Origin: an uncultured Smithella sp.
GTDB lineage: Bacteria; Desulfobacterota; Syntrophia; Syntrophales; Smithellaceae
Length of the DNA stretch: 64,000 nucleotides
Direction of reading: 5' to 3'
NCBI GenBank assembly: GCA_964608995.1
Contig: CAZSQS010000001.1
Location: forward strand, 130,659-194,658
Shown: positions 4,011 through 40,340 of the stretch, one piece after another
Numbering within the stretch: the first letter of the stretch is position 1
How the letters are laid out: the number at the start of each line of letters is the position of its first letter
Notes under the pieces: generated by a model
The model's database searches: none
What the model was told of the DNA's origin: nothing
Seen by the model: only the letters and a program-made list of their open reading frames with translations
Translations under genes and position numbers: made by a program

Positions 4011-7000
4011 ATGATCGATACACCCATTACCGTCATCGCCTGTTCCGTCTTGAAACCCGAATTGACCGCCTTGCGCAAAAAAGGGACGATTTCGTTTCCC
4101 GTGCGATTTGTGAGCTCAAAATATCACCTCCAGCCGGAAAAGCTTGCCCGGCGGCTTACAGCGCTGGTGCAAAAGGAACGCGCCTCAGGCGCCCGCGTCA
4201 TCCTGATGTTTGAAGACTGTTTTGCAGGCATGAGCGATCTGACAACCGGCGCGGACGTGGTTCGGGTAGCGGGTGTCAACGCCGCCGAGATGCTTCTGGG
4301 GAAAGAGCGCTACCTGTCGTTTGTCCGGGGCGGCGCCTTTTTTCTGTTTCCTGAATGGGTGACGCACTGGGAAGGAATTCTCTCGGTGTTTCCCGGAATG
4401 GACGCGGAAAGCCAAAAGGCGCTGATGCGCTCAAACCATACCCGCTTTGTGTATCTCGATACCGGTGTGATTGCCGTGCCCTTCGGCAAGCTTCAGGCTT
4501 GCAGTGATTTTTTCGGCCTTCCTTTTGAAGTGGTTGAAACGGGACTGGAGACGCTCGCGGGCGCGCTTCGCGAGGCTCTGGCGCGCCTGAGAACTTCCGG
4601 CGCTCCCCAAAGGCCCGCCTCCGGCGATTCCGGCGCGGCGGCTTTGATGATGCTCGATGTTCTGGCCACCGTCCTTAAAAATCCCGGAAGCCTCTCCGAA
4701 ACAGTGGCCAGGCTCTCCCGGAAAATTCGCGAGTTGACGGGCTCGCGCATGGTGATTCTGGCCCTGAAAAATGAATCCAAAAGCCCCTCCTCCGCCATTC
4801 GCCTGTTATCGGTGTATCCCGAGCGCCACGCCGCCGTGGGCCAGACGCAGGCGGTGCGGCAGATTCTCGAGGCCTCGTTTGGGATGGATTCGGCGACGGT
4901 GTTGCCGGGCTGTCCGGACCCGGAAGAAAAGACGCCGGCACGGGGCAAGCCCTGTCTGGTTCTTCCGATTAAAAGCCCAACGGAGCGCATCGGCACTATT
5001 GTTTCGATCGGTCTTTTGGACGAAAGCTTTGTCGCGCCGATTTTGAACATTTCAGATATTCTTTCAAGCGCAGTGGCCGTTGTTCTGACCAATGCGCTCC
5101 TGCTGGAGGCGCAATCGAAAAACCAGCGAAGGCTGGAAAACGAGATTGAGGAACACCGGCTGCTTTTTGAGCATGCCGTCTCCGCCATTGCCGTTCATGA
5201 AATTGTGCTCGACGAGGCAGGACGTCCGGTGGATTACGTTTTTCTTTCCGCCAATCCCGCGTTTGAGGCGCATACGGGATTGAAGGTGGCCGACGTGATC
5301 GGGCGACGCGCAAGTGACATTTTGCCCGGCATTGAAAAAACGCCGTTTATCGATCTTTACGGCCGGGTGGCGCTGTCGGGGAAACCCATCTCGTTTGAGC
5401 AGTATTCCGATGTATTGAAACGTCATTATTTCATCAGTGCCTACCGGGTGGGGCCTGGCCGGTTTGCGACGGCGTTTACCGACATGACTGCGCGTAAAAA
5501 GGCGGAGGCGGAACTGACCGACGCGCTGGAGGCGCTCAAAGACCGGGAAGAACGCATCAATCTGATGATGGAAGCCACCGACGAGGGGTTCTGGTTTTGG
5601 AACCGGCTGACCCACGAGCTCAAATTCAGCGCGAGCATGCTTCGCCATCTGGGGTTTGATGACGATGGCGCCGGATTCAGTTATCAGTGGTTTGCCGACT
5701 CTATCCATAAAAACAGCGTGTCCGTTTTTGACACGGCGCTCAACGACTATCTGACGGGGAAAAGCAAGTATTACGAGTTTCAATATCTGATCAAGGCAAA
5801 AAACGGCCAGTGGCGCTGGTTCTGGGCGCGCGGCGCCTGCACGGCCTATGGGCCCGACGGCAGCCCGCAGAAATTCATGGGCACACACCGGGACATCACC
5901 GAGCAAAAAAAACTCGGGAAGGAAAGGGAGGCCGCCCAGGAGGCCCTCAGGCAAAAAAGTGAGGAGCTGGAGCGATATTTTACCTCCAGTCTCGATCTGC
6001 TTTGCATTGCGGATACGGAAGGTCATTTTCTTCGTGTAAACCCCGAATGGGGAAACGTGCTGGGCTACAGCGCAGGCGAACTTCACGGGCGGCGATTTCT
6101 GGATTTTGTGCACCCTGACGATCTGGCCGCCACGCTTTCGGTCATCTCGGATCTTGAGGCACAAAACGACGTCTTGAGCTTTGAAAACCGCTATCTGGGC
6201 AAGGACGGCGCGTATCGCTGGATCGAGTGGCGCTCAAAGCCGCAGGGCAATCTGATCTACGCCGCCGCGCGCGACATTACTGCTCGTAAAAATGCGGAAC
6301 TGAATCTGCTGGAGATCAATCAGCGCCTCGAGAAAGCCATGGGGCGCGCCAAAGAGATGGCCCGACAGGCCGGCAAGGCCAACCGGGCGAAAAGCGAATT
6401 TCTGGCGAACATGAGCCACGAAATACGCACGCCGATGAATGCCGTCATCAGCTTAAGCCGGCTGCTTCTGGAAACGCCGCTCGATGATGATCAGCGAGAC
6501 TGCCTCAACAACATCAACGCCTCGTCGCGAATGCTGATGGGGATCATCAACGACATTCTGGATTATTCCAAAATCGAAGCGGGGAAGCTTGAGCTCGATC
6601 ATTCCGAGTTTCGGATCAATGATCTTCTGGAGCAGATGAAAAGTTTGTTTGCCTCGGCCGCCGCCGACAAGCGCCTTCAACTCGTTTTTGAGGCAGCTCA
6701 GGATCTTCCGTCCGTGGTGGTGGGCGATTTCCTGCGCCTGGCCCAGGTGCTGAGCAATCTGATGGGAAACGCCGTCAAGTTTACGAGGCAGGGGTTTGTG
6801 ACCCTGCGGATTTCGCGCACCGGCGGCGATGATACACAGGCGTTGCTATGCTTCGAGGTGAGTGATTCCGGCATTGGTCTGACCCAAGCGCAAATTCGCC
6901 GCTTGTTTAAAGCGTTTTCGCAGGGGGATTCCTCCACGACCCGCGAGTTCGGCGGCACCGGTCTGGGATTGTCCATCAGCCAAAAGCTCGTGGAGCGCAT

Positions 7001-8897
7001 GGGGGGCGCGCTTCAGGTGGAGTCCCTTCCCCAAAAGGGCAGCGTTTTCTTTTTTGAGCTGGAGATGCCGGTATCGGCGCTTCCGGCGGACGCGGGCATA
7101 TCCTCTGACGTCAAGGATTCAAAGGGCGGCTCTGCCGAGTCTGCGCGGGCAGGCAAAACGAAGATTCCTGATTTTTCCGGCTATTCCATTTTGCTGGTGG
7201 AAGACAATATCTTGAATCAGGAAGTGGCCAAACGCTGGCTGGAAAAAACCGGCGTGACCGTCACCGTGGCTGCAAATGGCGCGGAGGCGGTGTCGCTCGT
7301 CGATCAAAGGCGATTTGACCTGGTCCTGATGGATTTGCAGATGCCGGTGATGGACGGCTTTGAGGCCACCCGGCGGATTCGCAAACGGCATCGGGAGCTG
7401 CCGGTGATCGCCCTGTCGGCGGCCGTTTTGGAGGCCGACCGGCAAAAGGCGCGCCGCGCGGGGATGAACGCGCACCTGGCCAAGCCGATTGATAAAAACG
7501 AATTGTACCGGAAATTATCCGGATGGCTAAGACCGATGGATGCGGCTTCGGGTGATGCGGCCCAAATTCCATGGCTTGAGGGGCTTGAAGGGTTTGATGT
7601 GGTCAGCGGGCTTGGGTTGGCCGATGGTGATCCGGCGTTTTATCTCACGCTTTTGCATCACTTTAACGATCAGCTGGCAGACGAATTTGCGGGCCTGGTC
7701 AAACCGCCGGAGGGAATGGATCGTTCTCAAGCGGCTAAAAAGGCTCATGCGCTCAAGGGGGAGGCCGGCGCCGTCGGTCACACACGTCTGGCTGACATGG
7801 CCGCCGAGATGGACCGCGCTTTCAAAGCGGGAGAGTCGATTTCCGAAACACGGCTAGGCGAGTTGCGTGCCACCATGGAAGATGCGCGTCAGCGGCTGGC
7901 CGAGCTGCCTGTATCTCCCGGCGTCAATGCGCATCGTAACGCCGATACCGCAGCGCAGGACGCAAACCGCAGGGGCGCAGGCGAGGGGGAGGCGGCTAAA
8001 CCCGTTGTGCTGATCGTTGACGATCAACCCGCCAATCGCATGGTTTTATCCAAGCTGCTCAAAGACGACTATGCCATTGTGACGGCCGAAAGCGGCGCCG
8101 AGGCGCTACAGATCGCGGCGGGCGAACGTCCGCCTTCGCTCATGCTGCTGGACATTGAAATGCCGGACATGGATGGTTACGAAGTCTGCCGCAGGGTGAA
8201 GGCCAGTGTAAAAACCAGCGGCATCGCCGTGATTTTTGTGACCGGCCGGGATTCCGCACAGGATGAAGAGATGGGGTTTTCCCTGGGGGCGGTGGACTAT
8301 ATCTCCAAGCCCTTCCAGCCCGGCATTGTCCGCGCGCGTGTGCGCAATCACATCAACCTGAAAATTCGAACAGACCTGTTCGAATTGCTCTCCAGCCTCG
8401 ACGCGCTGACCAATATTCCCAACCGGCGCAGCTTCGAGGAGCATCTGGCCCGGGAATGGGCGCGCGCTGCGCGCAAAGGACAGCCCCTGTCGGTGGCGAT
8501 GATGGATATCGATCATTTCAAACTCTACAACGATCACTACGGCCACGGGGCGGGCGATGATTGCCTGCGCCTGGTTGCAAGGACGTTGAAGAAAACGCTC
8601 ACGCGTCCCACAGACATCATCGCCCGCTATGGGGGCGAGGAGTTTGTGGCACTGCTGCCGGATACGGATGCTAAGGGCGCTCGGCATATCGGTGAGCAGA
8701 TGCGCTCCGCCGTTGAGGCGGCGGCCATTGCCCATGACCATTCTCCCACGGCGCGCGTGGTGACCTTAAGCGTTGGCATGGCCACGCAGGTCCGGAAAGG
8801 TTCAAAAGACGCTGCCCGGCCATTGATCGATGCCGCCGATGCGGCCCTGTACCGGGCCAAAAGCTCCGGGCGAAACCAGACCTGCACAGCGGACTGA
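4011..8897 (+). CDS. Multidomain hybrid sensor: DUF1638-like, GAF-like, 3x PAS, HisKA/HATPase, REC, HPt, REC, GGDEF
   Basis: N-terminal VIACSVLKPEL...YHLQPEKL...FEDC...FVYLDTG (DUF1638-like); H-box FLANMSHEIRTPMN; GGTGLGL G2 box; LVLMDLQMPVMDG; HPt AHALKG; LMLLDIEMP; RPTDIIARYGGEEF. Confidence 0.93.
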   Translation: MIDTPITVIACSVLKPELTALRKKGTISFPVRFVSSKYHLQPEKLARRLTALVQKERASGARVILMFEDCFAGMSDLTTGADVVRVAGVNAAEMLLGKERYLSFVRGGAFFLFPEWVTHWEGILSVFPGMDAESQKALMRSNHTRFVYLDTGVIAVPFGKLQACSDFFGLPFEVVETGLETLAGALREALARLRTSGAPQRPASGDSGAAALMMLDVLATVLKNPGSLSETVARLSRKIRELTGSRMVILALKNESKSPSSAIRLLSVYPERHAAVGQTQAVRQILEASFGMDSATVLPGCPDPEEKTPARGKPCLVLPIKSPTERIGTIVSIGLLDESFVAPILNISDILSSAVAVVLTNALLLEAQSKNQRRLENEIEEHRLLFEHAVSAIAVHEIVLDEAGRPVDYVFLSANPAFEAHTGLKVADVIGRRASDILPGIEKTPFIDLYGRVALSGKPISFEQYSDVLKRHYFISAYRVGPGRFATAFTDMTARKKAEAELTDALEALKDREERINLMMEATDEGFWFWNRLTHELKFSASMLRHLGFDDDGAGFSYQWFADSIHKNSVSVFDTALNDYLTGKSKYYEFQYLIKAKNGQWRWFWARGACTAYGPDGSPQKFMGTHRDITEQKKLGKEREAAQEALRQKSEELERYFTSSLDLLCIADTEGHFLRVNPEWGNVLGYSAGELHGRRFLDFVHPDDLAATLSVISDLEAQNDVLSFENRYLGKDGAYRWIEWRSKPQGNLIYAAARDITARKNAELNLLEINQRLEKAMGRAKEMARQAGKANRAKSEFLANMSHEIRTPMNAVISLSRLLLETPLDDDQRDCLNNINASSRMLMGIINDILDYSKIEAGKLELDHSEFRINDLLEQMKSLFASAAADKRLQLVFEAAQDLPSVVVGDFLRLAQVLSNLMGNAVKFTRQGFVTLRISRTGGDDTQALLCFEVSDSGIGLTQAQIRRLFKAFSQGDSSTTREFGGTGLGLSISQKLVERMGGALQVESLPQKGSVFFFELEMPVSALPADAGISSDVKDSKGGSAESARAGKTKIPDFSGYSILLVEDNILNQEVAKRWLEKTGVTVTVAANGAEAVSLVDQRRFDLVLMDLQMPVMDGFEATRRIRKRHRELPVIALSAAVLEADRQKARRAGMNAHLAKPIDKNELYRKLSGWLRPMDAASGDAAQIPWLEGLEGFDVVSGLGLADGDPAFYLTLLHHFNDQLADEFAGLVKPPEGMDRSQAAKKAHALKGEAGAVGHTRLADMAAEMDRAFKAGESISETRLGELRATMEDARQRLAELPVSPGVNAHRNADTAAQDANRRGAGEGEAAKPVVLIVDDQPANRMVLSKLLKDDYAIVTAESGAEALQIAAGERPPSLMLLDIEMPDMDGYEVCRRVKASVKTSGIAVIFVTGRDSAQDEEMGFSLGAVDYISKPFQPGIVRARVRNHINLKIRTDLFELLSSLDALTNIPNRRSFEEHLAREWARAARKGQPLSVAMMDIDHFKLYNDHYGHGAGDDCLRLVARTLKKTLTRPTDIIARYGGEEFVALLPDTDAKGARHIGEQMRSAVEAAAIAHDHSPTARVVTLSVGMATQVRKGSKDAARPLIDAADAALYRAKSSGRNQTCTAD

Positions 8898-18421: not shown

Positions 18422-19438
18422 CTAGATGCCGGAGGTTCTCCACGTCAAAGCGTCGCTCGGTCTCTTGATGTAAGTCTTCCAGCGGGTGTCGCCATCGAGA
18501 TACGTCTTCTGGAAGGCCAGGGCCAGAGCGCCTGCGTTCGGTGCGAAAACCGTATCCGGCCCGCCCCAATCAAAGTGACCGGCAATCGAGATGACATAAA
18601 GCGCTTTTGGAATACCGCGCGGAATCGCGTTGTAAACGCTTTCCGACTGATACATGCCGCCCAGAACCGTCAAATCCGTTGCGCCGTTCATGAGCAGCAT
18701 CGGGCACTTGGTGTAGCGGCCGCTTTTGTAAATACTGGTTGCGGACAGGTTGTGGCCCGCCAGAGACATGGCCGTTTTCGGACCGGTTTTGGCTGCGTTA
18801 ATCCAGGTGGCGCCGCCGCCCATCGACCAACCCAACAACCCGATTCTGCTGGTGTCGAGTTTGCCCTTAAGCGCATGGCCGTTGCGGGTGTTGAGTTTCT
18901 TGAGCGCATTGTAGGCGCTCCACTGCAGGGAGGCTCTCAGATCCACGGTATCCATCGTGGTGGCCGAATCGCAGTTCACATAAACGATGCCGTGCGAGGC
19001 AAAGAAGGGGCCCCAGTCGGAGTTCGCCGCCTGTGTTCCCATGAAGGGCTGCATGAAGATGAGGGCGGAGAAAGGCGGCGTGGCGTTTTGCGGAATGTAG
19101 ATGGACGCGCTGGCTGTAAATCCGGGGAAGTCACTGGTTCTGCTGGAGCCGTAAGGGCCGCTTTTGCTTGTCGATTTTGGTGTATCATCGCGGCAGATCG
19201 CGCCTGCGGGGCATCCGGGAATCGATCCGGACGAGCTCGATGAACTGGACGAACTCGATGAGCTCGTGGAGTACCACCACGACGAACCTGACGACGAACT
19301 GGACGAACTCGATGAACTGGAGGAACTGGTGGAGAACCACCACTGGGCATCACAGGTTGACGCGGTTGCGCCCGCTAAAAACAGGCACACAAACGACAGA
19401 ATTAAAAAACTCGTAACTGACTTTCTTTTCATAACCAT
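18422..19438 (-). CDS. Secreted PETase/cutinase-like (polyesterase-lipase-cutinase family) alpha/beta hydrolase, copy 1, with WW-polySer N-terminal tether (homologous start 19432)
   Basis: Signal peptide; WGPFFASHG, GKLDTSRIGLLGWSMGGG nucleophile elbow, NGATD (Asp), AGHF (His), LDGDTRW. The motifs are collinear with Ideonella PETase (WGPRLASHG, GKVDTARMGVMGWSMGGG, MDNDTRY), recalled from memory. Confidence 0.88.
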   Translation of the reverse strand: MVMKRKSVTSFLILSFVCLFLAGATASTCDAQWWFSTSSSSSSSSSSSSSGSSWWYSTSSSSSSSSSSSSGSIPGCPAGAICRDDTPKSTSKSGPYGSSRTSDFPGFTASASIYIPQNATPPFSALIFMQPFMGTQAANSDWGPFFASHGIVYVNCDSATTMDTVDLRASLQWSAYNALKKLNTRNGHALKGKLDTSRIGLLGWSMGGGATWINAAKTGPKTAMSLAGHNLSATSIYKSGRYTKCPMLLMNGATDLTVLGGMYQSESVYNAIPRGIPKALYVISIAGHFDWGGPDTVFAPNAGALALAFQKTYLDGDTRWKTYIKRPSDALTWRTSGI

Positions 19439-19965: not shown

Positions 19966-20958
19966 CTAGATGTCGGAGCTTCTCCACGTCAAGGAATCGA
20001 GCGGTCTCTTGATGTAAGTCTTCCAGCGGGTGTCGCCATCGAGATACGTCTTCTGGAAGGCCAGGGCCAGAGCGCCTGCGTTCGGTGCGAAAACCGTATC
20101 CGGCCCGCCCCAATCAAAGTGACCGGCAATCGAGATGACATAAAGCGCTTTTGGAATACCGCGCGGAATCGCGTTGTAAACGCTTTCCGACTGATACATG
20201 CCGCCCAGAACCGTCAAATCCGTTGCGCCGTTCATGAGCAGCATCGGGCACTTGGTGTAGCGGCCGCTTTTGTAAATACTGGTTGCGGACAGGTTGTGGC
20301 CCGCCAGAGACATGGCCGTTTTCGGACCGGTTTTGGCTGCGTTAATCCAGGTGGCGCCGCCGCCCATCGACCAACCCAACAACCCGATTCTGCTGGTGTC
20401 GAGTTTGCCCTTAAGCGCATGGCCGTTGCGGGTGTTGAGTTTCTTGAGCGCATTGTAGGCGCTCCACTGCAGGGAGGCTCTCAGATCCACGGTATCCATC
20501 GTGGTGGCCGAATCGCAGTTCACATAAACGATGCCGTGCGAGGCAAAGAAGGGGCCCCAGTCGGAGTTCGCCGCCTGTGTTCCCATGAAGGGCTGCATGA
20601 AGATGAGGGCGGAGAAAGGCGGCGTGGCGTTTTGCGGAATGTAGATGGACGCGCTGGCTGTAAATCCGGGGAAGTCACTGGTTCTGCTGGAGCCGTAAGG
20701 ACCACTCTTGCTTGTTGATTTTGGTGTATCCTCGCGGCAGATCGCGCCTGAGGGACATCCGGGAATCGATCCCGACGAACTCGATGAGCTCGATGAACTG
20801 GTGGAATACCACCACGTTGAACCTGATGATGAGCTCGATGAGCTGGAGGAACTGGTGGAGAACCACCACTGGGCTTCACAGGTTGACGCGGTTGCGCCTG
20901 CTAAAAACAGGCACACAAACGACAGAATCAAAAGGTTTTTAACTGACTTTCTTTTCAT
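19966..20958 (-). CDS. Secreted PETase/cutinase-like alpha/beta hydrolase, copy 2
   Basis: Same motifs as copy 1; catalytic core identical; shorter Ser runs; different C-terminal tail (RPLDSLTWRSSDI versus RPSDALTWRTSGI). Confidence 0.88.
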   Translation of the reverse strand: MKRKSVKNLLILSFVCLFLAGATASTCEAQWWFSTSSSSSSSSSSGSTWWYSTSSSSSSSSSGSIPGCPSGAICREDTPKSTSKSGPYGSSRTSDFPGFTASASIYIPQNATPPFSALIFMQPFMGTQAANSDWGPFFASHGIVYVNCDSATTMDTVDLRASLQWSAYNALKKLNTRNGHALKGKLDTSRIGLLGWSMGGGATWINAAKTGPKTAMSLAGHNLSATSIYKSGRYTKCPMLLMNGATDLTVLGGMYQSESVYNAIPRGIPKALYVISIAGHFDWGGPDTVFAPNAGALALAFQKTYLDGDTRWKTYIKRPLDSLTWRSSDI

Positions 20959-38707: not shown

Positions 38708-39097
38708 TTAAGCGGCATTTTTTCCGTGTCCGTCGGCATACAGCCCGAACTGGACAGAAAAATCCGTTGCCTCGACGATGGGTTTAAGGTTTCGATTGAC
38801 CTTTTCGATCTTCACGATGCCATAGCGGGCCATCGTCTTGAGCGTTCGGGAGAGATTGCTGCTGCTTCGCCCCGTCGCCGCTTCCAGTTCCTTGAGGGAC
38901 TCAGGCTTGCGTTCCAGAATGATTTTCAGCAGCAGTTGGTTTTCATTGCTCAGAACCTGCGCCATGGATTGCAGCGATTCAAACCAGATTTTGGGTTCAT
39001 CGGATTTCGGGCGGTATTTTCCCCGGGCGATAGCCATGGATCGCTTTTTGTAATCCGGATAAGAAATAATGCCAATGTTCAGTACTTTCTGTTTCAT
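38708..39097 (-). CDS. HTH antitoxin/regulator (HVO_A0114-like wHTH)
   Basis: IWFESLQSMAQVLSNEN...PESLKELEAATGRSSSNLSRTLKTMARYGIV; ATGA overlap with the upstream gene. Confidence 0.8.
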   Translation of the reverse strand: MKQKVLNIGIISYPDYKKRSMAIARGKYRPKSDEPKIWFESLQSMAQVLSNENQLLLKIILERKPESLKELEAATGRSSSNLSRTLKTMARYGIVKIEKVNRNLKPIVEATDFSVQFGLYADGHGKNAA

Positions 39098-39492
39098 TTT
39101 ATTGCCTCTCCTTCCTGCCCCAGGAATTTTTCGACTTCGCGCCAGAAATCATCCAGCAATTGACTGGCTGATTCGTATTCATAGGGTAATATCTTGTCGC
39201 AGTTGTGTTTATGGTCCCAGGTGACCTTTCTTGCGCCATAGCCCTTTTTAGCCGTCCGTACGGCGTGGGCGTTGTCAAATCCGAGCACCCGCCGGTTGTA
39301 GCGGTCATGAAGCGTCAGGGAATAGCGGATGCCATGGGGAATATGCGGCTCAGGAGATATACGACGAACCTCGAACTTGGTCCAAAAGCCGCTATCCATG
39401 GGAAAGATTTCACCGTCCAGATGCAGAAGCGTGGCGAGGGGTTGATCCTCGATTTCAACAAGAGGGGGCTTGGCCTTAATCTTCATGGTCAT
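39094..39492 (-). CDS. Probable toxin, DUF6516/TumE-like
   Basis: PHGIRYSLTLHD...RVLGFDNAH...WDHKH...LLDDFWREV; two-gene module with the HTH partner downstream. Confidence 0.7.
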   Translation of the reverse strand: MTMKIKAKPPLVEIEDQPLATLLHLDGEIFPMDSGFWTKFEVRRISPEPHIPHGIRYSLTLHDRYNRRVLGFDNAHAVRTAKKGYGARKVTWDHKHNCDKILPYEYESASQLLDDFWREVEKFLGQEGEAIK

Positions 39493-39674: not shown

Positions 39675-40178
39675 TTACGCACGGTGACGGTCGCCGCTGC
39701 CTGTGGCATTGCCCTGCAGCCGTGTTTCAATCAGGTTGAGGATTTCTTCATTTTGCGGAATGTCCGCCATGGAATGGCCGTAGTGGACGAATCGCACCCG
39801 TCCCTCTTTGTCGATGAGCATTTGCGCCGGCAGGCGTCCCAGCTTGAAAAGCTTGACCTCCTGTCCGTAGAGTTTCAAAACGCGATGCTCGGGGTCGGGC
39901 AGTCCGATGAAAGGCAGGTCTTCTTTCTGCCAGTACTCCCGAAACGCCTGCGCGGTTTCCGGTCCCGCCACAAGGATTTCTGTATCCAGCGCTGCATATT
40001 TTTCATAATCGCGGCGCAACTGCGCCATGTGCGCACGGCAGAAGGGTCAGAAAAATCCCCGGTTGAAGACAAACAGGAGATGCTTTTTGCCGGTAAAATC
40101 GGACAGGGAGACGCTTTTACCGGTGTAATCGTCAAGCGTAAAATCCGGCGCCCGGGTGCTGAGTTCAACTTTCGGCAT
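39675..40178 (-). CDS. Peroxiredoxin-like (AhpC/TSA) selenoprotein, 167 aa, in-frame UGA at codon 44 (UPFC)
   Basis: GGAGG RBS; MPKVELSTRAPDFTLDDYTGKSVSLSDFTGKKHLLFVFNRGFF-TGA(40049-40047)-PFCRAHMAQL continues in frame into ORF 39675..40028. Confidence 0.88.
40021..40035 (-). other. Candidate bacterial SECIS hairpin
   Basis: UGCGC-ACAUG-GCGCA stem-loop beginning 11 nt after the UGA. Confidence 0.55.
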
Positions 40179-40340
40179 GAATTTTATTCCTCCTTCGGTT
40201 TTCCGGCGTTTCCATTTTTCTCTTGTTGATACGATAAAGGGAGGCTATGCAGGAGTCAATGGGAAAAATGGGCAATGCCTTGCGGAGCCATGAGGCCTCC
40301 GATGATGCCCCGTCGGCAAGCGCAAAAGGATCTTAGAGAG

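What the first reader, a model, noticed from the sequence alone, without database searches (positions are those of the whole stretch)
39675..40178. Hidden selenoprotein: peroxiredoxin-like protein with UxxC split by an in-frame UGA
Seen: strong RBS and ATG at 40178, 43 codons of AhpC/TSA-type N-terminus (APDFTL...VSLSDF...), then TGA at the position of the first redox Cys (RGFF-U-PFC) and an uninterrupted frame to 39675. A 5-bp GC stem-loop starts 11 nt after the UGA. Established: bacterial Sec insertion uses a hairpin just 3' of the UGA, and Prx-like selenoproteins occur in anaerobic deltaproteobacteria. The ORF caller truncates the gene to 117 aa and loses the active site.
Basis: partly seen in the sequence, partly recalled or inferred. 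Interest (0 to 1): 0.68.

Follow-up and report, generated by a model that had tools for sequence, protein, structure and literature searches.

The report
Mis-annotated peroxiredoxin-like selenoprotein gene
This is a real gene for a small redox enzyme whose catalytic residue is selenocysteine, encoded by a UGA "stop" codon. It belongs to a selenoprotein family predicted about twenty years ago that gene callers still cut in half.

Summary
The finding holds. On the minus strand, ATG 40178 opens a 167-codon frame with one in-frame TGA (40049..40047) and a TAA stop at 39677..39675. The read-through product is one AhpC/TSA (Redoxin) domain spanning the TGA. All 80 species-representative genomes fetched, from Smithellaceae, Desulfobacterales, Spirochaetota, Anaerolineales and Acidobacteriota, have TGA at this column. 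Rare homologues have TGC or TGT (Cys). The 36 codons upstream evolve like coding sequence in this frame. A 6-bp hairpin with an AGUU loop lies 20-35 nt after the UGA (window 40027..40012). It shows zero synonymous variation, compensatory changes across subfamilies, and passes shuffle and slide controls, so it is the bacterial SECIS element. In two Spirochaetales genomes the gene lies next to tRNA-Sec, with selA (and, in the longer contig, selB) beside it. Four independent assemblies reproduce the TGA. The U-P-F-C motif sits at the Trx-fold redox position on a BCP-like peroxiredoxin scaffold. That matches the published "Prx-like thiol:disulfide oxidoreductase" selenoprotein family (PF00578, UxxC). 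So this is a new member of a known kind, still mis-annotated in databases. Sec genes of this particular genome were not seen, because the window holds none.

The parts
39675..40178 (-). Full selenoprotein coding sequence: 167 codons including Sec44, ending at TAA 39677..39675. It is a Prx-like thiol:disulfide oxidoreductase with the redox motif U44-P-F-C47.
   Evidence: Translation. Pfam AhpC-TSA over residues 8-130, E = 1.1e-22. Homologues are 75-81% identical over residues 1-154 in Smithella/Smithellaceae genomes.
40189..40193 (-). Shine-Dalgarno sequence GGAGG, 10 nt upstream of the ATG.
   Evidence: Read directly from the sequence. In 53 of 80 relatives the first in-frame start after the upstream stop is an ATG exactly 43 codons before the Sec codon.
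40050..40178 (-). N-terminal 43 codons, lost by the ORF caller. They encode the first strands of the Trx fold up to the active site.
   Evidence: Across 81 sequences, identity is 0.78 at codon positions 1+2 and 0.46 at position 3. This matches the downstream part (0.83 / 0.49) and indicates coding selection in this frame.
40047..40049 (-). In-frame TGA = selenocysteine codon (Sec44).
   Evidence: TGA at this column in 80/80 genome loci and in 42 further loci (41 metagenome contigs and L081). Rare homologues have TGC or TGT. Four independent assemblies reproduce it.
40038..40040 (-). TGC codon of Cys47, the second residue of the UxxC motif.
   Evidence: TGC in 80/80 sequences, with zero synonymous variation. 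It aligns with the C-terminal Cys of ResA's CxxC and with the peroxidatic-Cys position of Bcp.
40012..40027 (-). SECIS hairpin: stem U·G, G-C, G-C, C-G, G-C, C-G with apical loop AGUU (loop 40021..40018). It overlaps codons M-A-Q-L-R-R.
   Evidence: Synonymous entropy is 0 at GCG, CAG and TTG. RNAalifold recovers this helix. 84.7% of cells pair, against 16-57% with slid partners. The covariation score is reached by 0/500 shuffles, and G-C/C-G/A-U exchanges occur. Energy is -9.9 kcal/mol.
40030..40040 (-). Possible small second helix (UGC...GCA) between the UGA and the SECIS. Its role is uncertain.
   Evidence: Invariant in subfamily 1. This includes the synonymous C of TGC and the third position (always G) of a codon whose amino acid varies. 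It shows no covariation, so it is unproven.
39675..40028 (-). The 117-aa ORF that gene callers report (MAQLRR...). It is a truncation artefact, not a gene of its own.
   Evidence: P0008. In subfamily 2 the corresponding codon is CTC/CTT (Leu), so that start cannot be the conserved one.

Best explanation
The locus encodes one 167-residue cytoplasmic selenoprotein. It has a peroxiredoxin (BCP-like) scaffold carrying a thioredoxin-type U44-P-F-C47 redox centre.

Decoding (inferred from the established bacterial Sec pathway): when the ribosome reaches UGA 40049..40047, the mRNA hairpin at 40027..40012 is bound by SelB·GTP·Sec-tRNA(Sec). The hairpin starts 19 nt after the UGA and has a G in its AGUU loop. 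SelB delivers selenocysteine in place of release factor 2.

Catalysis (inferred): the selenolate of Sec44 sits at the N-cap of the first Trx-fold helix. It attacks a disulfide or peroxide substrate. Cys47 resolves the intermediate into a selenenylsulfide, and a thioredoxin-type reductant regenerates the enzyme.

Shown here: the conserved TGA, coding selection on both sides, the conserved and covarying hairpin, Cys homologues, the fold, and linkage to selC-selA(-selB) in two relatives. Inferred, not shown: actual Sec insertion, the substrate and the reductant.
For: - One AhpC/TSA domain spans the TGA.
- TGA is at the same column in 80/80 species-representative genomes from at least five phyla and in 42 more loci (41 metagenome contigs and L081).
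- Database 'Trp' forms are TGA mis-called under genetic code 4.
- True Cys forms exist. P0004 is TGC in two independent metagenomes. P0061 is TGC. L116 is TGT and has lost the hairpin.
- Upstream codons show the coding pattern, identity 0.78 at positions 1+2 versus 0.46 at position 3.
- Synonymous entropy is 0 only at codons +3 and +8 to +10; codon +11 uses only CGC/CGT of six Arg codons. Other conserved codons show 0.4-2.2 bits.
- RNAalifold finds the hairpin. It passes the shuffle and slide controls, with both-sided changes at four of the seven pairs tested.
- Subfamily 2 has a different hairpin sequence in the same register, plus a lower stem.
- tRNA-Sec lies about 100 nt from the gene in L050 and L064. 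In L050 it is followed by SelA (497 bits, cutoff 268) and SelB (310 bits, cutoff 242); in L064 only a partial SelA at the contig edge is seen.
- TGA is an ordinary stop for 14 of 40 long ORFs in the window.
- The TGA is identical in four assemblies from two studies.
- In the AF2 model of the natural Cys form (pLDDT 90), residue 44 sits at the N-cap of helix 45-56. Best fold matches are Bcp1 (TM 0.86-0.89) and ResA (TM about 0.75).
- U44 aligns with the nucleophilic Cys of ResA's CxxC.
- The literature describes exactly this type: a Prx-like protein with a UXXC motif in place of TXXU (PMC1088965), present in Syntrophus aciditrophicus, Geobacter and Desulfotalea (PMC1794560).
Against: - No selA, selB, selC or selD and no second selenoprotein gene were found in the 64-kb window. 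The Sec trait of this particular organism therefore rests on its relatives.
- No Rfam family matches the hairpin.
- The single-sequence fold of the 63 nt from 3 nt before the UGA is no better than shuffles (z = +0.78).
- No protein-level evidence (75Se labelling or mass spectrometry) exists here.
- The biochemical function is inferred from motif and fold only. The gene neighbourhood is not conserved, so it gives no functional hint.
Confidence: 0.93

Rival explanations
1. Pseudogene or sequencing/assembly error. On this view the TGA is a nonsense mutation or a misread TGC/TGT, and the gene is dead or really encodes Cys.
For: A single in-frame stop in one sequence would normally suggest this. 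The ORF caller treats it as a stop.
Against: The TGA is identical in four independent assemblies from two studies. It is at the same column in 80/80 genomes and in 42 further loci (41 metagenome contigs and L081). Purifying selection acts on both sides.
Confidence: 0.01
2. UGA terminates translation here. The functional products would be a 43-aa peptide and/or a separate 117-aa protein started at ATG 40028.
For: An ATG lies 7 codons after the TGA. Databases hold dozens of such 104-117-aa 'proteins'.
Against: The Pfam domain and the predicted fold need both halves, and the active site lies at the junction. In subfamily 2 the 'start' position is a Leu codon, CTC/CTT. The ATG is part of the nucleotide-invariant region next to the hairpin. 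No Shine-Dalgarno sequence precedes it in the sequence.
Confidence: 0.03
3. UGA is read as a standard amino acid (Trp, Gly or Cys). This would happen through genetic-code reassignment or SECIS-independent near-cognate read-through, not as selenocysteine.
For: Many database entries show Trp at this column.
Against: Those Trp residues are TGA codons called under code 4 on short contigs. TGA ends 14 of 40 long ORFs in the window. Natural replacements at the column are Cys, not Trp or Gly. A conserved, covarying hairpin follows the codon. selC and selA, and in L050 also selB, lie beside the gene in two genomes.
Confidence: 0.02
4. The gene is a genuine family member, but this particular organism has lost the Sec machinery. 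In that case the gene would be silent or truncated here.
For: No sel genes or tRNA-Sec lie in the 64-kb window.
Against: The window's hairpin, RBS, start codon and frame are all intact, and the sequence fits the constrained family consensus. Sec genes are usually unlinked to their client genes. Related Syntrophales are selenoprotein-rich: Syntrophus aciditrophicus has 19 selenoproteins including SelD (PMC1794560).
Confidence: 0.03

Closest known systems
Prx-like thiol:disulfide oxidoreductase selenoprotein family. Described by Kryukov & Gladyshev 2004; called 'Prx-like protein' in the Sargasso Sea and 'Prx-like 1' in GOS. Defined as PF00578 with UxxC/UxxU; representative WP_010940744.1 per PMC13188914.
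   Same: It has a PF00578 domain. A Trx-type UxxC motif replaces the TxxC/TxxU of true peroxiredoxins. A bacterial SECIS lies directly after the UGA. It occurs in anaerobic Deltaproteobacteria, including the Syntrophus lineage (PMC1088965, PMC1794560, PMC2398784).
   Different: Direct sequence comparison with the published representative could not be done here. This clade has its own conserved C-terminal motif, HYGHSMxDIP. It is almost entirely Sec: Cys forms are rare (L082/L083, L084/L085 and L116 among about 125 loci), whereas GOS Prx-like 1 had 225 Sec forms against 2,740 Cys homologues. A sister subfamily has UxxA with no resolving Cys.
BCP/PrxQ-type peroxiredoxins (for example Sulfolobus Bcp1, PDB 3drn) and the Sec-peroxiredoxin PrxU.
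   Same: These are the best structural matches (TM 0.86-0.89). They share the Pfam family. An Arg (R115) lies before the strand carrying LID, as in peroxiredoxins.
   Different: The PxxxTxxC motif is absent: the sequence reads N-R-G-F-F-U-P-F-C. Sec occupies the Thr position, and Cys47 occupies the peroxidatic-Cys position. NCBIfam scores are far below the cutoffs: BCP 45 against 140, PrxU 27.5 against 270.
ResA/TlpA/CcmG-type thiol-disulfide oxidoreductases.
   Same: ResA is the closest solved structure by sequence (4nmu, E = 3.6e-9). The CxxC register is the same, with U44 at the nucleophilic Cys. The cis-Pro loop is conserved (GR-x-P117).
   Different: Those proteins are membrane-anchored and extracytoplasmic, and they use Cys. 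This protein starts 8 residues before the domain, with no signal peptide or membrane anchor, and it uses Sec. The NCBIfam ResA score is 52.7 against a cutoff of 170.
SelL-related redox proteins (NCBIfam NF040769).
   Same: This is the best NCBIfam match (85 bits, E = 4e-24), another Prx-like redox family with Sec/Cys motifs at this position.
   Different: The score is below the curated cutoff of 120. The best-scoring stretch covers residues 9-105 of the protein and positions 2-99 of the 173-position profile.
Bacterial SECIS elements (for example E. coli fdhF, and the bSECIS consensus).
   Same: It is a stem-loop inside the coding region just 3' of the UGA, with a small apical loop containing G (PMC1088965). 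It is conserved at synonymous sites.
   Different: No Rfam model matches it. The minimal conserved helix is short, at 6 bp. Subfamily 2 adds a lower stem, which subfamily 1 lacks.

Membership tests
Prx-like thiol:disulfide oxidoreductase selenoproteins | AhpC/TSA (PF00578) domain | tested here: met
   Pfam PF00578, 80.8 bits (cutoff 26), residues 8-130.
Prx-like thiol:disulfide oxidoreductase selenoproteins | Thioredoxin-like UxxC motif in place of the Prx TxxC/TxxU | tested here: met
   The motif is U44-P-F-C47. U aligns with Thr of Bcp and with the first Cys of ResA's CxxC.
Prx-like thiol:disulfide oxidoreductase selenoproteins | In-frame TGA conserved among homologues, with Cys in some homologues (Sec/Cys pair) | tested here: met
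   80/80 genome loci have TGA. TGC occurs in L082-L085 and TGT in L116.
Prx-like thiol:disulfide oxidoreductase selenoproteins | Sequence relatedness to the published representative (WP_010940744.1, Geobacter sulfurreducens) | not testable with these tools
   The reference sequence could not be retrieved. The GOS supplement held as text (cut when stored) contains no HYGHS motif.
Prx-like thiol:disulfide oxidoreductase selenoproteins | Selenium actually incorporated into the protein | not testable with these tools
   This needs 75Se labelling or mass spectrometry. The 2026 review itself lists the family only as 'predicted with high confidence' (PMC13188914).
Bacterial SECIS element | Stem-loop in the coding region immediately 3' of the UGA | tested here: met
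   The helix spans columns 23-28/33-38 counted from the U of UGA, which is window 40027..40012.
Bacterial SECIS element | Small apical loop containing a G | tested here: met
   Loop AGUU is invariant in subfamily 1. Subfamily 2 has GCCU, GGUU or GUUU.
Bacterial SECIS element | Structure conserved beyond coding constraint (synonymous suppression, covariation) | tested here: met
   Synonymous entropy is 0 bits at GCG, CAG and TTG. The covariation score is reached by 0/500 shuffles. Pair 24-37 is GC 85 / CG 10, and pair 25-36 is GC 73 / GU 20 / AU 3.
Bacterial SECIS element | Binding by SelB | not testable with these tools
   This needs a binding or read-through assay.
Bacterial SECIS element | Match to a curated RNA family | tested here: not met
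   There is no Rfam hit at gathering score over the window, and none relevant at E <= 10 over 39900-40200. This may only mean that no curated model covers this element.
Sec-decoding organism | selA, selB, selC, selD present in the same genome | tested here: inconclusive
   None is present in the 64-kb window. tRNA-Sec lies next to the orthologue in L050 and L064, followed by SelA and SelB in L050 and by a partial SelA at the contig edge in L064.
Typical peroxiredoxin (BCP/PrxQ, PrxU) | PxxxT/SxxC(U) active-site motif and equivalog-level score | tested here: not met
   The sequence reads NRGFF-U-PF-C, with neither the Pro nor the Thr. Scores are BCP 45.1 against 140 and PrxU 27.5 against 270.
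Typical peroxiredoxin (BCP/PrxQ, PrxU) | Prx fold | tested here: met
   Foldseek matches 3drn at TM 0.86-0.88 and 3hjp at 0.88.
SelL-related redox protein (NF040769) | Score at or above the curated cutoff | tested here: not met
   85.1 bits against a cutoff of 120.
ResA/TlpA extracytoplasmic oxidoreductases | Signal peptide or membrane anchor, and equivalog-level score | tested here: not met
   The domain starts at residue 8, with no hydrophobic N-terminus. The score is 52.7 against 170.

The most novel reading that the evidence does not exclude
This clade (FNRGF-x-U-PFC ... HYGHSMxDIP) may be a distinct subfamily not yet curated. It would be almost obligately Sec-dependent and spread by horizontal transfer through hundreds of anaerobic species: 597 confirmed stretches in a collection of one genome per species, across at least five phyla.

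Its SECIS is nucleotide-invariant. Sister subfamilies have swapped the hairpin sequence, and one has dropped the resolving Cys (UxxA). That last point implies that Sec alone is the catalytic residue, in a one-Sec, peroxidase-like mechanism. In some Spirochaetes the gene is physically linked to selC-selA-selB.
Probability: 0.35. Interest if true: 0.4.

Novelty: new member of a known kind. Interest (0 to 1): 0.3.

Why it matters
Biologically it is a routine member of a selenoprotein family predicted in 2004, so it changes no concept. Its value is practical.

- The family is still truncated or mis-called almost everywhere in public databases. Entries are 104-117-aa 'peroxiredoxin Q/BCP' fragments, or 'Trp' forms produced by code-4 gene calling.
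- No curated NCBIfam model captures it.
- The alignment of about 120 Sec forms gives an unusually clean, covariation-supported bacterial SECIS.
- It also gives a natural series that could be used to test what Sec contributes to a Prx-scaffold oxidoreductase: UxxC, a recent Cys form that keeps the hairpin, an older Cys form that has lost it, and a UxxA subfamily.

Tried and rejected
- **Single-sequence folding.** Folding of the 63 nt from 3 nt before the UGA is not better than shuffles (z = +0.78). It was uninformative and was superseded by the comparative analysis.
- **Rfam.** There were no hits at gathering score over the whole window, and none relevant with permissive thresholds over 39900-40200.
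It is not conserved: 60% of cells pair, and 332/500 shuffles do as well. Rejected as the SECIS.
- **Other TGA-interrupted genes in the window.** Of 83 mechanical candidates, only this one is plausible.
- **Sec genes in the window.** No tRNA. No SelA, SelB or SelD domains among 20 proteins scanned. No tblastn hit with the L050 SelA/SelB.
- **Conserved gene neighbourhood.** None was found. Only LysE recurs, 6-8 kb away in 4 loci, so context gives no functional inference.
- **Link to published sequences.** The GOS supplementary sequence file has no HYGHS motif, but the file was cut when stored. Inconclusive.
- **Code-4/25 reassignment.** Rejected, because TGA ends 14 of 40 ORFs in the window.
- **Pseudogene or sequencing error.** Rejected.

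Full report
**Observation.** On the minus strand, GGAGG (40193..40189) lies 10 nt before ATG 40178. The frame runs for 43 codons (MPKVELSTRAPDFTLDDYTGKSVSLSDFTGKKHLLFVFNRGFF). It then meets TGA at 40049..40047 and continues without another stop (PFCRAHMAQLRRDYEKY...) to TAA 39677..39675. The mechanical ORF list splits this into a 43-aa ORF and a 117-aa ORF. The 117-aa fragment is what the protein database holds for this contig (P0008). With Cys substituted for the stop, Pfam AhpC-TSA matches residues 8-130 (E = 1.1e-22) and Redoxin matches residues 8-137. One domain therefore spans the TGA.

**Is the TGA real and conserved?** A homology search gave a telling pattern. The closest relatives (80-88% identity) are all 104-107 aa and start at the Met seven codons after the TGA. 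'Full-length' relatives of about 155 aa mostly show Trp at the TGA column, and a few show Cys. At the DNA level, the 'Trp' of P0001 is a TGA that had been called under genetic code 4.

A scan of one genome per species confirmed 597 stretches encoding relatives. In the best 80 loci, the codon at this column is TGA in 80 of 80. These include Smithella/Smithellaceae/Syntrophaceae at 75-81% identity. They also include Desulfosarcina, Desulfobulbus alkaliphilus DSM 24258, Spirochaetota, Anaerolineales and Acidobacteriota.

Logan assemblies of four wastewater-metagenome runs from two studies reproduce the window's TGA with no differences. TGA is also the ordinary stop of 14 of 40 long ORFs in the window, so the code is not reassigned.

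**Is the upstream part translated in the same frame?** Across 81 sequences, the 36 codons before the TGA are 0.78 identical at codon positions 1+2 and only 0.46 at position 3. The downstream part shows the same pattern (0.83 and 0.49). In 53 of 80 loci the first in-frame start after the upstream stop is an ATG exactly 43 codons before the TGA. Both halves are therefore under protein-coding selection in one frame.

**Sec/Cys pairs.** Genuine Cys forms exist but are rare.
- P0004 (73-74% identical to the window's protein) has TGC in two independent metagenomes. It still carries the hairpin sequence, so it is a recent Sec-to-Cys change.
- P0061 also has TGC.
- L116 has TGT, and the hairpin-forming codons have drifted to ATG TCT CAA CTG CGG.

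**The SECIS element.** Folding the window's sequence alone was uninformative, and Rfam has no match. The comparative signal is strong.
- Over 136 aligned codons, synonymous entropy is exactly 0 only at codon +3 (TGC) and at codons +8 (GCG), +9 (CAG) and +10 (TTG, a six-fold Leu).
- Codon +11 uses only CGC or CGT out of six Arg codons.
- Every other conserved Leu, Ala or Arg column shows 0.9-2.2 bits.
- These codons form UGGCGC-AGUU-GCGCCR. RNAalifold predicts this helix on its own.

Relatives of P0061 turned out to be a second Sec-containing subfamily (FLRGFM-U-PYCRAHLARLRDDY). They have a hairpin in the same register but with a different sequence: UCGCGC-GCCU-GCGCGA, UUGCGC-GGUU-GCGCAA or UCGCCC-GGCUGCA-GGGCGA. 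They also have a lower stem (GCCGCG/CGCGGC). One subfamily-1 member has GAUGC/GCAUC.

I counted pairs on 109 sequences of both subfamilies. The helix pairs in 84.7% of cells, against 16-57% when the partners are slid by 1-3 columns. Its covariation score is reached by 0 of 500 shuffles. Pair 24-37 is GC 85 / CG 10, and pair 25-36 is GC 73 / GU 20 / AU 3.

In the window the hairpin is 40027..40012, with its loop at 40021..40018 and an energy of -9.9 kcal/mol. It is not conserved: 60% of cells pair, and 332 of 500 shuffles do as well.

**Sec machinery.** The window contains no tRNA and no other credible TGA-interrupted gene. None of 20 scanned proteins has a SelA, SelB or SelD domain, and tblastn with SelA and SelB finds nothing. 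In two Spirochaetales loci, however, a tRNA-Sec gene (anticodon UCA) lies about 100 nt from the orthologous gene. In L050 it is followed by SelA (TIGR00474, 497 bits, cutoff 268) and SelB (TIGR00475, 310 bits, cutoff 242); in L064 only a partial SelA at the contig edge is seen. Related Syntrophales are known to be selenoprotein-rich. Syntrophus aciditrophicus has 19 selenoproteins, including SelD and a 'Prx-like thiol:disulfide oxidoreductase' (PMC1794560). For this particular genome the trait is inferred, not shown.

**What the protein is.** By sequence, the nearest solved structures are ResA thiol-disulfide oxidoreductases (4nmu, E = 3.6e-9), followed by a Bcp peroxiredoxin (3drn). U44 aligns with the nucleophilic first Cys of ResA's W-C-x-P-C. 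In Bcp, U44 aligns with the Thr of the TxxC motif, and C47 aligns with the peroxidatic-Cys position.

An AlphaFold2 model of the natural Cys form P0004 has pLDDT 90.2 and pTM 0.86. It places residue 44 at the N-cap of helix 45-56. Its best structural matches are BCP-type peroxiredoxins (TM 0.86-0.89), with ResA at about 0.75.

G114-R115-x-P117 is invariant. It combines the Trx-fold cis-Pro loop with an Arg at the place where peroxiredoxins have their catalytic Arg. There is no signal peptide, so the protein is cytoplasmic. A third subfamily (L117-L126) reads U-P-Y-A and has no resolving Cys. This argues that Sec, not Cys47, is the primary catalytic residue.

The most likely mechanism has three steps: the selenolate attacks a disulfide or peroxide, Cys47 resolves the intermediate to a selenenylsulfide, and a thioredoxin-type reductant recycles the enzyme. 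The substrate is unknown, and the gene neighbourhood is not conserved, so it gives no clue.

**Comparison with what is known.** The literature describes a 'Prx-like protein family'. [quoted passage not shown] The family appears as:
- 'Prx-like thiol:disulfide oxidoreductase' in Syntrophus, Geobacter and Desulfotalea (PMC1794560);
- the same name in the Olavius symbionts (PMC1976440);
- 'Prx-like 1' (pfam00578, UxxC) in GOS (PMC2398784);
- still 'predicted with high confidence' in the 2026 review (PMC13188914).

The window's gene meets every defining feature I could test: domain, motif, conserved TGA with Cys homologues, and SECIS. I could not compare it directly with the published representative. 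Curated models do not capture it. The best NCBIfam match is 'SelL-related redox protein' at 85 bits against a cutoff of 120, and ResA, BCP and PrxU are far below their cutoffs.

**Verdict.** This is a genuine selenoprotein gene, correctly spotted. It is a new member of a known kind, and surprise to a specialist is low. The useful by-products are a covariation-supported SECIS, evidence that this clade is almost entirely Sec-dependent and systematically mis-annotated, a UxxA sister subfamily, and selC-selA(-selB) linkage in Spirochaetes.

Noticed in passing
L050:1899-5143 and L064:81-328: In two Spirochaetales genomes, a tRNA-Sec gene (anticodon UCA) lies about 100 nt from the orthologous Prx-like selenoprotein gene. 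In L050 it is followed by selA and selB, so a client gene is physically linked to the Sec machinery.
   Followed up: yes
L117-L126 (for example L124:3106-3165): A sister subfamily reads FLRGF[SGD]-U-PYA[RQ]KHLGQMKQDF. It has Sec but no resolving Cys (UxxA), and its own hairpin (CAUCUG-GRN-CAGAUG) lies slightly closer to the UGA.
   Followed up: partly
window 40008-40031: In three runs (X2-X4), Logan contigs break at the SECIS hairpin and k-mer depth rises several-fold to about 10-fold there. The likely cause is that many community members share identical 31-mers at this spot. Conserved RNA elements inside genes can therefore fragment metagenome assemblies.
   Followed up: partly
window 40030-40040: UGC (the Cys47 codon) and GCA seven nucleotides later are invariant in subfamily 1. 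This includes a synonymous site and the third position (always G) of a codon whose amino acid varies. It may be a 3-bp helix or a decoding-context constraint. There is no covariation, so it remains unexplained.
   Followed up: partly
window 18422-19438 and 19966-20958 (minus strand): Two tandem paralogous genes, 959 of 993 aligned nucleotides identical, encode PETase-like (PF12740) hydrolases.
   Followed up: partly
window 38708-39492 (minus strand): A toxin-antitoxin-like pair lies directly downstream of the selenoprotein gene. It consists of a TumE-family toxin (39094-39492) and an HVO_A0114/HTH protein (38708-39097), with overlapping stop and start codons.
   Followed up: no
L082:399-3471 and L083:373-3445: The recent Cys (TGC) form P0004 keeps the SECIS hairpin sequence. 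It lies next to a reverse-transcriptase (RVT_1) gene and a DsbA-family gene.
   Followed up: no
protein database hits P0001-P0063: Many 'full-length' entries of this family show Trp at the Sec position. P0001, the one checked at the DNA level, is a TGA called under genetic code 4 on a short contig, so this looks like a systematic artefact that hides selenoproteins. Two further forms show Arg (P0007) and Leu (P0014) at the column and were not checked at the DNA level.
   Followed up: partly
window 4011-8897 (plus strand): A very large ORF (1628 aa) was not examined.
   Followed up: no
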